DNA from: Octopus vulgaris
Taxonomy: Eukaryota
Length of the DNA: 64,000 nt
Direction of reading: 5' to 3'
NCBI GenBank assembly: GCA_951406725.2
Contig: OX597815.1
Span: 28,024,001 to 28,088,000, forward strand
Shown: positions 9,001-63,500 of the stretch, in pieces
Layout of the letters: the number at the start of each line of letters is the position of its first letter
How positions within the stretch are numbered: position 1 is the stretch's first letter
Made by a program: the position numbers

Positions 9001-12000
9001 GCCTTTAATGATTTCTGACATAGGCACAAAGGCTCAAATTATGAGGCTAGTAAAGTTAATTAGATTGACACCAGTATTCAAATGGCACTTATTTTGTTGA
9101 TCCACAGAAGTTTGAAAGATCAAAGTGAAAGTTCTTTGTTACATCCATTTCGTCTATCCATCTTTTCCACTCACTATTCCTGGGAGGGTCATATGGGTTG
9201 AGTCTCCAGATACTTCCTTCAGACACTTTCTATCAGAAGCAACTATCATTACACTTTCTAGTTGGATTCCCAAGCATGACCAACTGGAACAATGGATATC
9301 ATCCAACCATGTCATTCTATCCCTAGGTATCCTGCCAGTTGGCTCAGCTTGACCAATCTGTCTGGTACCTAGTCTGAACAGCTAATTATACTGAAGGATT
9401 TAGAACGAAATATCTTGCCTAGAGACACACCAAAGTATCTGCAGTAGTTGTGAGCCAATGATATCTGATTTAGTAGTTTACTGAACCATTTTGACTCCAG
9501 ATAACATTTTGTAAAAAAAAAAAAGTAAAAAAATGAAAAATAAAAATCTAATTATATCACCGTCAATTTAAATTTTAAAATTTACTTTCATAAGCATCTC
9601 TTGCAGAAAATGATAATGATTGGGGAAATTAGAACAATTGGGTGAAGTGAATTGGAACTAAATCTATGTCAAGTACAAAAGTACAAGGTTTGTTTGTAAA
9701 TTGATTGTCTGAAAAAAATATGCAGCTGAGAAAATGTCTAACTTCTTTAAGTTAAGGTTAGTGGATAGAAATTTTGTTTTTCCTCCCAGGATTCATATAT
9801 TAGAATTTGTGCTAACAGCTTTCAAGTATTATAAAACGTTGATGTTCATTTGTAAAAATATGAAACAATTCTAAGTGTTTGGCAAAGATTATAGCACAAG
9901 AACAATGTCTGCGCCTAAAAAGAAAAATGTTGAAAATAACTTGATATCAGTGATGAATTTATGGAAGATAAGGCAGGCTAGGTAAGGTTAAGAAACAAGG
10001 TTAAAAAAAAAAAAGAACAAACCAAAATAAGAATCACTGTTGGTTGCTTTAGATGTATGTAAGTTGACATGAGGTCAGAATCTGAAATGGTCTTTCAAGA
10101 AATAAATAACTTGATATATTTTTAGAGAATTATATTGTTGATTTTCGTTTGGTGCTTTATCTTTGATGTAAGCAAGTAATGTTTGAAACAATAAACTGAA
10201 GTTAAAGTGGATATAAAAGTAAAAGTACACAACATAAAGTTATCAGGTGAAAAAAAAAGAAGGAAATATTGATATAGAAATAAAAGAAACAAAACATGAA
10301 ATATCTTATGGCTTACTGAGAAGGATTTAGTTGCCAGAAAGAAGGTAATTTCCTGAAATGTAAAGAATTACTATTGTTACTTGTAGTCTATGTTGAGGAG
10401 CAGATAATGGTAAGAGAACAAGAAATAAAAATTGCACTCTTACTTGAAGCATTAAAATACATTGAATATTTGGTTCAATGCAAAAGTTTCCTAAAAAATA
10501 TCAACCCAATGGAAGATTAATAAAGTTTAAATCAATTTAATTTTAGTTCATAACCACTACTCTTATTTACTGAGATTAAAAATACTGAGCCATCACTGTA
10601 GAGCTGTTGCAGAGTTATTGTCACTGTTGTGAGAAGTTAATGTTAGAATTTCAGACATAGTAATATTCCTATTACTTCAAAACCAGTGATAAAATTATAA
10701 TAAAGTAGGAAATTAAGGAATCATTAAACTAAACATATGCCACAAGATTTAAGAAATCAATGTTTTCGTTCCTATTTTTCAAAGTAAAAATAATATAACA
10801 GCAAATAATGATAGCTCAATATTTCTAGCAAGAAATATGGTTTTGTACCATCAACAAGTTCCAGACAAACATTGAAATATTTTGCTTTGAAATTTCAACA
10901 TTAATATATATCATGTTTTCTTCAGGACACAATGTAGTTTCACAAACAGTTGGATTTAAAATATTAGTTTAATATCAACTGAGCTGTGTTCTATGTTAAA
11001 GTATTTATAAAGAAGTATTGTGATAAAGAAGTATTGTGAAATAACTAAACATAGTAAACTAGATTAGTAAACTATATACATATATTAGTATTTTTTCCTA
11101 AAAATATAAATTATACTAGAAACAGTTGCAGCTATATGAAACATGGAGACAATGTTGCAGCTTAAAGGCAGAAGCAGTACACCAATGTTTGATATCAGAT
11201 TGAAGTGTCTAAAACACCATGTCCAGAGTAGAGAAGACAAAAAGCATATTAGACAGTGCATTAGTTTTCTTATTACTCTTGAGGGGCAGGGTAACATAAA
11301 AGTATCTAACTACTGAAACATTAGCTATATCAATATATACAGTTATACACGTTGATATGTAAGCATATAAAAGTTAACAATTTTAGAAACATTCTATTAA
11401 ATTCATCTCTTTATCAACATATATTTAAACAAGTTTTACTCTTTTGTTTTTTATACATTTTAACGCATTTTATGATTTTTATGATTAAAAAATTTACAAA
11501 ATTTTAAAGACTAATGACAATTCAAAATATTATTCATTTGGAGAAATTTTCAGACATTTGTTTTTTTTAATGAGAAATCTAGATATATTAAAAATACTTT
11601 TTGTTTTACATGCTTTATCAAATTGTCAGAATAATATGAAATAAAAATAATTTTCCATACTAAATGGATCTTTTCAAATTATTTTAATTGTGGTATATAT
11701 ATATATATATATGTTATATGTTTATATATACATATATTAAGCAATATTAGGAAAAGTTTTGTGCAAAAGTTGATATCATGCTTAATAATTAATAATGGTA
11801 AAAAGAAAACAAAAAAATGATTGTGCAATGTCAGTGAATTAAGAAATTCTTAAAATAATCACATTATTTTGGCATTCAAATAACCAAAGCATTTCTTAAT
11901 GTTCATGCCTGTTGAGGCCAGAGACAGTCAATTCAAAGACAAAACATGCCTGTCTTGAACCACAGTGTTAATAAATCAGATTGATTGATGCACTGATATG

Positions 12001-60514: not shown

Positions 60515-63500
60515 TGTATGTATGTCATAGGACTTATGACATGCATGTACATGTGCATGTACAGCCGGCTATGTATGTATGTTTTAGTTGCCAATTCTGT
60601 ACAAGACATTGTAGATCTTTGGCTGGGCTAAAAAGTCACATTCGATCACAGCACCAGTAACAGTTAAGCTTCGTGCAATGGCCATACTCGATAACGAGGG
60701 GGCAGCCAACATATGTATATATGTATGTATGTATGTATGTGTGTATGTATGTATGTATGTATGTGTGTATGTATGTATGTGTGTATATGTATGTATGTGT
60801 ATGTGTGTGTGTGTGTGTGTGTATGTGTGTGTGTGTATGTATGTATGTATATGTTTGTATTTATATGTTCGCATATACACTTAATTATGGAACAACAAGA
60901 CAAATAACAGAAATGAAAATACCGAAAGCGAATAAAAAAAGTTCACCTTTAGAAAAGAAACAAAAGTACAATAAGAAATACATAATGCACAGCAGCGACA
61001 AATATCAATGGACCAGACTTTGTGACATATAAGAAATACTAAAGTCATTTACAAGTTTTACTGGCACATCTTAGAGAAAAACTGAGATTGTTCTTCAAAG
61101 ATTTATAGAACTGAATTCCTCATAATAAGTTATCTATGGATGGATAAGTTTAAAATGAAAGCAAAAAAATAGTTAAAATTTCTGTAGTTGTGTATTAGTA
61201 TTTTTATATGAATCATGAAAAAAAATGCCATAAGAAAATGAGTCCTTATCAGGAATATAAATGAGTAGAAGCCAGCTTAGGTATTCTTAAAAATCAATAT
61301 ATGTGCCAATAATCCAATAAATGAATCATACTTAAAGCAACAAATAGATAAAATAAAAGAGTTTTCCCAAATTAAAATATCCGAAGTCATTATTTTAGTT
61401 AAGAAAAGAAGCAGCTAAAGAGAAAGAAAGTAGTTGAACAGATTCTGTTAATGCTAATGAGAAGAAGATTGGTCCAACAGAGGCTGTTTTTTAACCATTA
61501 GAAGGAATGGCCAAACAGAACCTGTTGTTACCATTATATGAAATCGCTCAACACTGACTGAAGCTATCATTAGATGAAACAGCTGCACAGTGTCAGTTCT
61601 GAGCATTGGAAATGGTTCAACAGAGTCTATTGTTCCCACCAGTTGAAATGGCTGAATAGAGGCCCAAGTTATCATTCAGGAGTATAACTTTATAGAGTCT
61701 GTTGTTTACCATTAGGTAGAATGACCCAACAGAGTATGTTATTACATTTTTGAGATAGGATGACCCAAAAGAATCTGTTGTTACCATTATGTAGAATGGC
61801 CCAACAGAATCTATAATTACATTTTTGGTGGGATGGTTCAAAAGAATCTGTTGTTACCATTAGATGCAACAACCCAATGAAGACTGTTTACTATCATTAA
61901 CAAGTATGACCCAACAGAGTCTGTTGTTAGCACTAAAGGAAATAGTTTGACTGAGTTGATTGCTAACAGTGACAGATAAGATAATATTACACTCTACCTA
62001 GAACTGCGGATGCTCCTTTTCGGAATAATGCAACTGTGAGAGGGAAAAAGAAATTTGAAAACAATAATAAGTATGGTTATCTTAATCAATACTCCATAAT
62101 TGTTCAAGTCTGGGACTTCAGTTGGTTAATAGAATCAGGAAATTAAGTTATACTATATTAATAGGAAAATAAAAATATATATATATATAAAGATGAATTA
62201 ATGAAAATTTGATGGATCTATAAGATATTTAAAACACCATTTGAATAAATGAAATGTTAAAAATAAAAAAAGCATGCTGTAAGTAAAAGAATATTTTTTT
62301 TTATTATGTTATAATGGAAACAGTATGAGAAGAATCTGAGAAGAGATGAATTTGCAATGAATAGCTAGCAGCAATAAAATATGATGAAGGGTTATACATA
62401 GAAGTTTATGGTGTTTTATTGATTTGCCTGTTATTCTGGTTGTTAAATTTTATGACATAGCTAGTCAATGTCACAATGATATACACATTATGATTAATTT
62501 ACTTTGTCTTCTATAATTACTATCAAGTGAATACTGTGCTATTTATATGTATCTATATATGAATATATATGTATATAGATATTTATCTATAGGTGTGAGG
62601 GTGTGTATACACACACACACACATGCGCAGACATATATTTGTATGTTTCTAATTCTTAGTCTGAGTATCAACAATGCTCTTCTGTGATGATGGTTGGAGA
62701 TAGTCAGATGAAGTTAAAGGACTAATCATTCTGTTCTGATGGTCAAGTTAAGGGCACTGCATATGCAGAGTAGAAACTTTTGCATTGCAACTGCAGAAGA
62801 ATGATAATGGAGTAAGATGTTGTAGAGCACTCATGAGTGAAGTCTTATCTATAAAATAGATAGATTTCTTGTAGAGAAGTATGCAATCTAGAATGTGTAT
62901 ATTATTGTTTAGTTCCATGTCACCCCAATTAAGCAGACCTGTGATCAAAGACACTCAAGCCATGACCAAAGGCATGCTAGCCATGACCAATCCAACTGTT
63001 TCAAGGCATATAAGATGACATTATTGTCTTTATCTTCTGTAGGTTAGCAGGGTGTGATTTGAATGATATCTAAGTGCCATTTCAAGCATGTTGAGTGATC
63101 ACATAGAGAGCCTGTTCATTGGCTGATATGTGTGTATATGGTAAGAACCATCATTCATATATTTGAGTCACATTCCAGGGTAGTGTATATTTGTGCTTCA
63201 TATAAATTCAGCAACAGGCTAGAACTGAAATATTTTCTGTCCCTGGAGAGGAATAGCATAATTCTAAATTTTATGTTTCAGCAGTTTTGTTGACCAATGC
63301 GGTCAACATGAATGATATTATATACATATGTATATACTTATTAAGGACTGGTCATTTTTTGTTGTTGTCTAGCTCTAGGTGATCACAGACTAAAACAAAC
63401 CTATGGCCAAATATGTTCCAGTAGTAACCAGTCTATCTAAGTCTACATTATCCAACATTGCCCAATATGCTCTTCTTTTTTTTCAGGATAGAAAATGATG

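What the first reader, a model, noticed from the sequence alone, without database searches (positions are those of the whole stretch)
10317..62033. Hidden minus-strand exon chain: the hypervariable RCK1-RCK2 linker of a BK (slowpoke) channel spread over more than 50 kb
Seen: five exons absent from the ORF track (36, 6, 91, 90 and 36 nt) have canonical borders, and their phases chain exactly (1-1, 1-1, 1-2, 2-2, 2-2) into about 86 stop-free codons. Known: invertebrate Slo/SLO-1 has LA(T/L)FR(K/R) right after KKCKCKN, and this linker is the main alternatively spliced region tuning BK gating (vertebrate STREX site). Inference: four of the five exons are frame-neutral cassettes, so they could combine into a lineage-specific isoform set likely to be missed by annotation.
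Basis: partly seen in the sequence, partly recalled or inferred. Interest (0 to 1): 0.8.

Follow-up and report, generated by a model that had tools for sequence, protein, structure and literature searches.

The report
Octopus BK channel linker exons, already annotated
The window lies inside the octopus BK (slowpoke) potassium-channel gene and holds six small exons of its variable middle linker, which are real and alternatively used but already present in public gene models, so the finding is correct and ordinary.

Summary
The exon chain is real. Minus-strand exons lie at 62033-61998 (36 nt), 30043-29953 (91), 16400-16311 (90) and 10352-10317 (36). All have cag|..|gta borders and match RefSeq BK-channel isoforms of Octopus sinensis, O. 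bimaculoides and O. vulgaris at 100%.

It encodes the Ala-Ser insert of O. sinensis isoform X7.

The window holds only linker exons and introns. The exons for KKCRCRP and PTSPSK..FDSTGMFHWC are not in it.

Among 20 cephalopod proteins the 91-nt exon is always present. The other five are cassettes, giving 11 linker patterns of 31-100 residues.

"Hidden / missed by annotation" is wrong, because every exon is in public models. "Lineage-specific" is only partly right. The first exon recurs in 96 of 132 Slo linkers, nematodes included. Four exons recur in cuttlefish, and short motifs recur in bivalves and gastropods.

None of the cassettes resembles STREX beyond its position. Function (gating, phosphorylation or trafficking tuning) is inferred, not shown.

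The parts
61998..62033 (-). Exon E1, 36 nt, phase 1-1, encodes (V)ALFRKGASAVL. It is a cassette, present in 14 of 20 cephalopod proteins.
   Evidence: Borders. 100% tblastn match to 11 of 15 Octopus isoforms. An E1-like motif occurs in 96 of 132 Slo linkers. The exon is hit by 85 non-octopod queries.
57421..57426 (-). Probable 6-nt microexon CATCGG, phase 1-1, giving Ala-Ser. It is used in O. sinensis isoform X7 in place of E1 and Eb (1 of 20 proteins).
   Evidence: It is the only match in the window to the pattern required by RP-AS-V. It is the only 1 of 94 AG-N6-GT candidates with a strong splice context. The isoform is shown. The pattern alone is not rarer than chance, so the placement is probable only.
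45980..46024 (-). Exon Eb, 45 nt, phase 1-1, encodes (A)LQRRSELTHTDNQI.
   Evidence: Thr at residue 9 matches O. sinensis, whereas O. bimaculoides has Val. Cuttlefish has ALQRTSELAGTDNRI. Aplysia and other gastropods begin ALQRT.
29953..30043 (-). Exon E3, 91 nt, phase 1 to 2, encodes (V)LSSVTNMPNKKDKAAASPGSQMKKISNIS. It is constitutive, present in 20 of 20 proteins.
   Evidence: (E = 1.3e-11, 100%).
16311..16400 (-). Exon E4, 90 nt, phase 2-2, encodes (N)YSKILEDVEEGDDRMLAISEQPPKGSRLA(M). It is a cassette with an acidic cluster. It is present in 13 of 20 proteins (Octopus, Argonauta) and in 0 of 3 cuttlefish models.
   Evidence: (first database hit). The tail KGSRLAM aligns with bivalve KGPRLAM.
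10317..10352 (-). Exon E5, 36 nt, phase 2-2, encodes KLPSFWQLNPS(Q). It is a cassette, present in 12 of 20 proteins.
   Evidence: (100%, E = 0.013). Cuttlefish has KLPSLWQNVKMQ. It aligns by position with the bivalve ALATLWSKTKE and AIASLLSKSKENQ cassettes.
10353..61997 (-). Five complete introns: 61997-57427 (4,571 nt), 57420-46025 (11,396), 45979-30044 (15,936), 29952-16401 (13,552) and 16310-10353 (5,958). They are AT-rich, with microsatellites and degenerate interspersed repeats.
   Evidence: One search used Eb coordinates one base too high, so its two Eb-flanking lengths are corrected by hand here. No Pfam family above cut-off in 12 long ORFs. 0 Rfam families. 0 tRNAs.
1..10316 (-). Part of the intron leading to the next exon (PTSPSKG..), which lies beyond the left edge.
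   Evidence: no PTSPS, GTL.AL or FDSTG in any frame of the window.
62034..64000 (-). Part of the intron coming from the preceding exon (..AIKKCRCRP), which lies beyond the right edge.
   Evidence: no KKCRC in any frame of the window.

Best explanation
The window is an internal piece of the single BK (Slo1, KCNMA1/slowpoke-type) channel alpha-subunit gene of an octopus. It is identical in all six exons to the Octopus sinensis models, and O. vulgaris cannot be told apart.

The 91-nt exon is constitutive and moves the reading phase from 1 to 2. Three phase 1-1 cassettes lie upstream of it (36, 6 and 45 nt), and two phase 2-2 cassettes lie downstream (90 and 36 nt). These are included or skipped without breaking the frame, so the linker varies from 31 to 100 residues.

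Shown here: the exons, their borders and phases, their identity to annotated isoforms, and the pattern of presence and absence among predicted isoforms.

Inferred: that the cassettes tune the channel. By analogy with linker splicing in other BK channels, they would add or remove kinase-type sites (RRS in the 45-nt exon, KKIS and SP in the 91-nt exon), an acidic cluster (EDVEEGDD in the 90-nt exon) and a short conserved, probably helical segment (ALFRKGASAVL). These could change gating, regulation by phosphorylation or surface delivery.
For: - The ORF around the 90-nt exon hit XP_052834501 (O. bimaculoides KCNMA1-like X2) at E = 5.5e-8 as the only hit among 17 candidates.
- Its 90% cluster holds 31 named Octopus BK isoforms, of which 15 were listed.
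- All four larger reader exons and the 45-nt exon match these isoforms at 100%, collinear and on the minus strand.
- The isoform alignment shows the cassette behaviour.
- P0006 scores 1842 bits against Aplysia Slo1 (5tj6) and 1555 bits against Drosophila Slo (7pxe).
- Human chains align up to residue 641/642 and again from the ..RKFDSTGMFHWC block, so the window-encoded part is the RCK1-RCK2 linker.
- The Drosophila linker C631-E777 was disordered in cryo-EM (PMC8660915, passages).
- Linker splicing controls trafficking signals in human BK (PMC2906319, abstract and passages).
- STREX is a 59-residue insert at site C2 with PKA and palmitoylation control, and PKC acts on a linker serine (PMC4141542, passages).
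- The cassettes are conserved in cuttlefish, and E1 is conserved across protostomes.
Against: - No transcript or junction-read data were available here. The isoforms are computer-predicted models whose read support I could not see.
- Only 15 of the 31 cluster members were listed.
- The placement of the 6-nt exon rests on a single pattern match that is not rare by chance.
- No functional data exist for any of these cassettes. The kinase and acidic motifs are short and could be chance.
- The AlphaFold2 model was of low confidence (mean pLDDT 44, linker below 50) and supports nothing beyond disorder.
- No UGCAUG enrichment near the exons: 2 sites in 3.6 kb against about 1.5 expected.
Confidence: 0.95

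Rival explanations
1. The exon-like segments are chance open frames with chance AG/GT borders in a repeat-rich intron or intergenic region.
For: The window is 32% GC and full of short open frames. One search lists 25 candidates of 91 nt and 38 of 90 nt with AG..GT borders and an open frame. The bare microexon pattern is not rarer than chance.
Against: There are 100% matches to independent database proteins, in the right order and on the right strand: E = 1e-11 and 2e-12 for the two long exons. Cuttlefish and Argonauta orthologues keep the same exons.
Confidence: 0.01
2. The window is a duplicated or degenerate partial copy (pseudogene fragment or paralogue) of the BK gene, not the functional locus.
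For: The flanking constitutive exons are not in the window, so the full gene cannot be seen here.
Against: All six exons are intact, have canonical splice sites and are identical to the O. sinensis models, including the species-specific Thr in the 45-nt exon. Spacing by long introns is what a genuine locus would show. All Octopus isoforms in the cluster map to one contig per species.
Confidence: 0.02
3. The exons are real, but most of the isoform variety is splicing noise or a product of model building with no functional meaning. The linker is only a flexible tether whose length and content matter little.
For: The linker is disordered in the Drosophila structure and in the model here. Its middle part is not alignable between octopus and Aplysia. 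No regulatory motif enrichment was found. The isoforms are predictions.
Against: E1 is identical, and the 45-, 91- and 36-nt exons recognisably conserved, between octopus and cuttlefish. E1 skipping recurs in predicted oyster, abalone, Littorina and Physella isoforms. All cassettes preserve the frame. In other animals linker splicing has measured effects.
Confidence: 0.3

Closest known systems
RefSeq/GenBank models of the Octopus BK channel gene (O. sinensis isoforms X1-X13, e.g. XP_036356396; O. bimaculoides X2-X7, e.g. XP_052834501; O. vulgaris CAI9717180)
   Same: All six exons match at 100% and show the same cassette pattern. The window agrees with O. sinensis at the one residue that separates it from O. 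bimaculoides.
   Different: Nothing found. The window adds only the genomic coordinates and intron sizes. 16 of the 31 cluster members were not listed and could hold further patterns.
Aplysia californica Slo1 (PDB 5tj6/5tji) and other mollusc Slo channels
   Same: The same protein family (1842 bits). Aplysia has KKCKCRP-LAMFKKGAAAVL-ALQRTPGL, that is E1 and the start of the 45-nt exon. Bivalves share NP..KKDR, KGPRLAM and an optional ..L(W/L)SK.KE cassette at the same positions.
   Different: The middle of the linker (tail of the 45-nt exon, and the 91- and 90-nt exons) does not align with Aplysia. It gives no significant tblastn hit from any non-cephalopod linker (best E above 7). The similarities outside E1 are short motifs judged by eye on an alignment.
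Vertebrate BK splice site C2 / STREX insert
   Same: Alternative, frame-preserving insertion in the RCK1-RCK2 linker. STREX carries a PKA-target serine (PMC4141542, passages).
   Different: STREX is a single 59-residue insert that needs palmitoylated cysteines. The octopus cassettes are 2-30 residues and contain no cysteine (sequences). No sequence comparison with STREX itself was made.
Nematode slo-1 splice sites
   Same: Several present-or-absent cassette sites give a combinatorial isoform set: four sites and 12 characterised variants in C. elegans (PMC4270693, passages). Ascaris and Brugia SLO-1 have LALFRKGAKQVQ directly after KKCKCRN.
   Different: Which nematode site corresponds to which octopus exon was not established. 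The figure that would show it is a supplementary file, which was closed.

Membership tests
BK / Slo1 (KCNMA1, slowpoke) channel alpha-subunit gene | Encoded peptides match annotated Slo1 orthologues | tested here: met
   five exons are 100% identical to Octopus BK isoforms.
BK / Slo1 (KCNMA1, slowpoke) channel alpha-subunit gene | Exons are collinear with the protein and on one strand | tested here: met
   protein positions 642-741 map to 62034 down to 10316, all on the minus strand.
BK / Slo1 (KCNMA1, slowpoke) channel alpha-subunit gene | The matched protein has the BK architecture (ion-transport domain, BK_channel_a, two RCK domains) and matches solved Slo1 structures | tested here: met
   Precomputed Pfam PF00520, PF07885, PF03493, PF22614 and PF21014 for P0001. 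1842 bits to 5tj6 and 1555 bits to 7pxe. This holds for the database protein; none of those domains is encoded in the window.
BK / Slo1 (KCNMA1, slowpoke) channel alpha-subunit gene | Flanking RCK1-end and RCK2-start exons adjoin on the same strand | not testable with these tools
   They are absent from the window, and sequence beyond the window was not available.
Alternatively spliced cassette exon | Canonical AG/GT borders with a pyrimidine tract | tested here: met
   all six exons have ..ag| and |gt. Five donors read gta, and the 45-nt exon's reads gtatt.
Alternatively spliced cassette exon | Frame-neutral length | tested here: met
   The 36, 6, 45, 90 and 36 nt exons are multiples of three. 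The 91-nt exon is not, and it is present in 20 of 20 proteins.
Alternatively spliced cassette exon | Present in some transcripts and absent in others | tested here: inconclusive
   Seen among predicted protein isoforms (11 patterns in 20 proteins). Transcript or junction-read evidence could not be inspected.
STREX-type insert (vertebrate site C2) | Lies in the RCK1-RCK2 linker | tested here: met
   human chains align up to the KKC.C block and resume at FDSTGMFHWC.
STREX-type insert (vertebrate site C2) | Cysteine-rich, palmitoylated insert of about 59 residues | tested here: not met
   There is no cysteine in any of the six exon peptides, and the longest cassette is 30 residues. The STREX properties come from PMC4141542 passages.
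Microexon (27 nt or shorter, multiple of three) | Very short frame-preserving exon with strong splice signals | tested here: met
   57426-57421: 17 of 20 pyrimidines upstream and a GTAAGA donor.
Microexon (27 nt or shorter, multiple of three) | Neuron-enriched inclusion | not testable with these tools
   No expression data were available.

The most novel reading that the evidence does not exclude
The octopus linker cassettes are the cephalopod version of an old, modular mollusc splice code. E1 dates back to the protostome ancestor. The 45-nt, 91-nt and last 36-nt exons are shared by octopods and cuttlefish. The KG(S/P)RLAM tail and the following ..LW.. cassette are shared with bivalves.

Inclusion would be coordinated rather than free. 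The 45-nt exon is seen only with E1 (10 of 10). In octopods the last cassette is seen only with the 90-nt exon (9 of 9). The 6-nt exon is seen only when E1 and the 45-nt exon are skipped.

Each module would change kinase control or surface delivery of the channel in particular neurons or muscles. I found no paper on this for cephalopods in the held library.
Probability: 0.3. Interest if true: 0.4.

Novelty: already known. Interest (0 to 1): 0.15.

Why it matters
As a scan result it matters little. The gene, the exons and their alternative use are already in public annotation for three Octopus species, and linker splicing is a textbook feature of BK channels.

It does show that reading raw sequence by eye recovered four of five small exons exactly, a likely 6-nt microexon included. 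It also gives exact genomic coordinates, phases and intron sizes for a linker spread over more than 64 kb.

The cross-mollusc comparison suggests that the linker's cassette layout is older and more conserved than its poor sequence conservation implies. That gives anyone studying BK regulation in cephalopods a defined set of isoforms to express and compare.

Tried and rejected
1. Single-exon searches against solved structures: the 91-nt exon and E1 with flanks gave 0 hits at E up to 10. The 90-nt exon gave one irrelevant hit (ArgR, E = 1.4). The queries were too short, so this says nothing.

2. Search for further, unannotated linker exons. Linkers of 132 of 134 Slo proteins were run by tblastn against the window. 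Everything outside the six exons was weak (best E = 0.007-0.008), often with stops or on the plus strand, so no extra exon is proposed. Exons with no counterpart in those proteins cannot be excluded.

3. UGCAUG (Rbfox-type, recalled) near the exons: 2 sites within 300 nt of six exons against about 1.5 expected. No enrichment.

4. AlphaFold2 of O. sinensis X1 with a 48-sequence alignment: mean pLDDT 44 and pTM 0.35, with residues 639-784 all below 50. A helix is drawn over 644-654 (E1) at low confidence. It is not used as evidence, and no fold search was made.

5. Other genes in the window: 12 long ORFs against Pfam gave nothing above cut-off, Rfam gave 0 and tRNA gave 0.

6. Chance test of the microexon pattern: not rarer than chance by itself. 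The placement rests on strand, interval, splice context and uniqueness.

7. A second cluster look-up listed the same 15 of 31 Octopus members, so 16 isoforms stayed unseen.

8. Exon-by-exon searches and database proteins were used instead.

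Full report
**What the window is.** It is 64,000 bases with no N and about 32% G+C. It holds many short open frames, microsatellites and degenerate interspersed repeats. Twelve long ORFs matched no Pfam family above cut-off. No Rfam family and no tRNA was found. The composition fits long introns of an AT-rich animal genome.

**Checking the observation.**
62033 is the first base of a 36-nt exon..ctctcacag|TTGCATT..CTAG|gtagag. 10317 is the last base of another 36-nt exon..catttcag|GAAATT..CTCA|gtaagc.
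- I listed every AG-N91-GT and AG-N90-GT segment that is open in the stated phases. This gave 25 and 38 candidates.
- Two of them looked like coding sequence with good splice sites: 30043-29953 and 16400-16311.
- The single exons found nothing useful among solved structures.
- The 53-residue open frame around the 90-nt exon found one protein among 17 candidates. It was XP_052834501, 'calcium-activated potassium channel subunit alpha-1 isoform X2' of Octopus bimaculoides, at E = 5.5e-8 (one search had failed on length).

**Identity.**
- That protein represents a 90% cluster of 31 named BK isoforms of O. sinensis, O. bimaculoides and O. vulgaris, of which 15 were listed.
- tblastn of the 15 against the window gave 100% identity for the four larger reader exons, collinear and on the minus strand.
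- The isoform alignment showed two further variable pieces. One is ALQRRSEL(T/V)HTDNQI. The other is a two-residue Ala-Ser insert found in O. sinensis X7.
- The first piece is a 45-nt exon at 46024-45980 with ..cccttcag| and |gtattc borders. Its Thr agrees with O. sinensis rather than O. bimaculoides.
- The second piece fits one place only, 57426-57421 (CATCGG). It follows 17 pyrimidines in 20 and is followed by gtaaga. It is 1 of 94 AG-N6-GT candidates in that interval with such a context.
- The bare pattern is not rarer than chance, so I call this placement probable.
- An alternative donor or acceptor cannot give Ala-Ser. The six bases before the 91-nt exon would read Val-Ser. A donor shifted into a GT intron would start with Gly. 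This is inference from the sequence.
- The motifs KKCRC, PTSPS and FDSTG occur in no frame of the window, so the neighbouring constitutive exons lie beyond both edges.
- The linker therefore spans more than the 64 kb seen. The complete introns measure 4,571, 11,396, 15,936, 13,552 and 5,958 nt (with the two Eb-flanking lengths corrected by one base by hand).

**How the exons are used.** I examined 20 cephalopod proteins: 16 Octopus, 1 Argonauta and 3 cuttlefish.

| Exon | Present in |
|---|---|
| 91-nt | 20 of 20 |
| E1 (36 nt) | 14 |
| 6-nt | 1 |
| 45-nt | 10 |
| 90-nt | 13 |
| Last 36-nt | 12 |

- There are 11 patterns, and the Octopus linker runs from 31 to 100 residues.
- The 91-nt exon is the only one that changes phase (1 to 2), which explains why it is constitutive.
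- The three cassettes upstream of it are phase 1-1 and the two downstream are phase 2-2.
- The junction residue depends on the partner: Val or Ala at the first junction, Asn or Lys after the 91-nt exon, and Met or Gln before PTSPS.
- The 45-nt exon is never seen without E1 (0 of 10).
- In octopods the last cassette is never seen without the 90-nt exon (0 of 9). In cuttlefish it is (3 of 3).
- All of this rests on predicted isoforms. I could not see read support, and 16 cluster members were not listed.

**Place in the protein.**
- O. sinensis X1 (P0006) scores 1842 bits against Aplysia Slo1 (5tj6), 1555 against Drosophila Slo (7pxe) and about 1400 against human Slo1.
- Human chains align up to residue 641/642 and resume at the ..RKFDSTGMFHWC block. 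The window-encoded residues 642-741 are therefore the RCK1-RCK2 linker.
- In the Drosophila cryo-EM model this linker (C631-E777) was disordered (PMC8660915, passages).
- My AlphaFold2 run was of low confidence throughout (mean pLDDT 44), with the linker below 50. I draw nothing from it.

**How far the exons reach in evolution.**
- Searching with the linker alone (residues 642-741) found only octopod proteins: 3 hits among 110 candidates.
- With conserved flanks (residues 600-800) there were 127 hits from molluscs, an annelid, a nemertean, a brachiopod and nematodes.
- E1 is widespread. An E1-like motif occurs in 96 of 132 linkers, and 85 non-octopod queries hit the E1 exon in the window.
- Aplysia Slo1 reads KKCKCRP-LAMFKKGAAAVL-ALQRTPGL. 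Ascaris and Brugia read KKCKCRN-LALFRKGAKQVQ. I did not inspect Drosophila.
- Predicted isoforms without E1 exist in oysters, abalone, Littorina and Physella.
- Named cuttlefish proteins carry E1 (identical), the 45-nt exon (ALQRTSELAGTDNRI), the 91-nt exon and the last cassette (KLPSLWQNVKMQ), but not the 90-nt exon. Argonauta carries the 90-nt exon.
- On a MAFFT alignment of 16 named linkers, the end of the 90-nt exon (KGSRLAM) lines up with bivalve KGPRLAM.
- On the same alignment, the last cassette lines up with the optional bivalve and gastropod ..L(W/L)(S/Q)K.KE piece, and NMPNKKDK lines up with ANPLLSKKDR.
- These are short motifs judged by eye. By tblastn none of them is significant (best E above 7).
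- No further exon homologous to any other species' linker was found in the introns.

**Mechanism.**
- Shown: frame-preserving cassettes in a disordered linker.
- Inferred from the peptides: the 45-nt exon adds RRS. The 91-nt exon has KKIS and SP. The 90-nt exon adds an acidic run (EDVEEGDD) and KGSR. E1 is a short hydrophobic-basic segment.
- In mammals, linker exons carry trafficking signals whose skipping gives a dominant-negative subunit (PMC2906319, abstract and passages).
- Also in mammals, the STREX insert at site C2 reverses PKA regulation and needs palmitoylation, and PKC acts on a linker serine (PMC4141542, passages).
- C. elegans slo-1 has four splice sites giving 12 characterised variants (PMC4270693, passages). 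The supplementary figure that would map those sites was closed.
- By analogy, the octopus cassettes most likely tune kinase control, gating or surface delivery.
- None of them is a STREX homologue. They have no cysteine and are 2-30 residues long.
- The main rival is that the variety has little functional meaning.

**Literature.**
- A search for octopus + BK channel + splice returned 7 papers, none on this subject.
- A search combining cephalopod, slowpoke, KCNMA1 and related terms listed 12 papers of 394, none of which contained 'cephalopod'.
- A search for Aplysia + Slo + splice variants listed 10 of 15 papers, none on mollusc linker splicing by title or abstract.
- So I found no paper on cephalopod BK splicing in the held library. 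This does not cover subscription journals.

**Verdict.** The exons are not hidden, because they are in public gene models. One exon was missed, and the isoform set is only partly lineage-specific. The finding is ordinary and already known. Its modest value lies in the exact coordinates and in the hint of an old, modular linker layout in molluscs.

Noticed in passing
window 51889-52204 and 53376-53691; third copy 1563-1790: An interspersed repeat family. Two copies form a 316-nt, 90%-complementary inverted pair 1,171 nt apart, inside the intron between the 6-nt and 45-nt exons. In the pre-mRNA this could fold into a long double-stranded hairpin. A 67-nt internal tandem repeat lies at 51888-52041.
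   Followed up: no
window 13739-14120: A perfect (100%) tandem duplication of a 191-nt unit in the intron between the 90-nt and last 36-nt exons. It is either very recent or an assembly artefact.
   Followed up: no
window 42181-42844, 33959-34136, 44600-44758, 16526-16767, 27402-27720: Large TA/CA-type microsatellite blocks, (ATA)59 and (TATG)40. They produce the long 'YIYIYI' open frames.
   Followed up: partly
window 59109-59552 (-) and 55704-56018 (-): Open frames that look like decayed retroelement remnants, in the sense orientation of the gene. The second has a sub-threshold PHD-finger match (E = 0.0035, 17.8 bits against a cut-off of 24). The first matched no Pfam family.
   Followed up: partly
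window 16441-16446 (minus strand, 42 nt upstream of the 90-nt exon) and about 189 nt downstream of the 6-nt exon: Single UGCAUG motifs close to two cassettes. They are not enriched over the window background of 0.42 per kb.
   Followed up: yes
proteins P0076, P0086, P0032, P0027 (oysters): Oyster BK isoforms carry extra linker cassettes (RFGNKLA; a ..YNL..HSWK.KVGSYR.T piece). These have no counterpart in the octopus window.
   Followed up: partly
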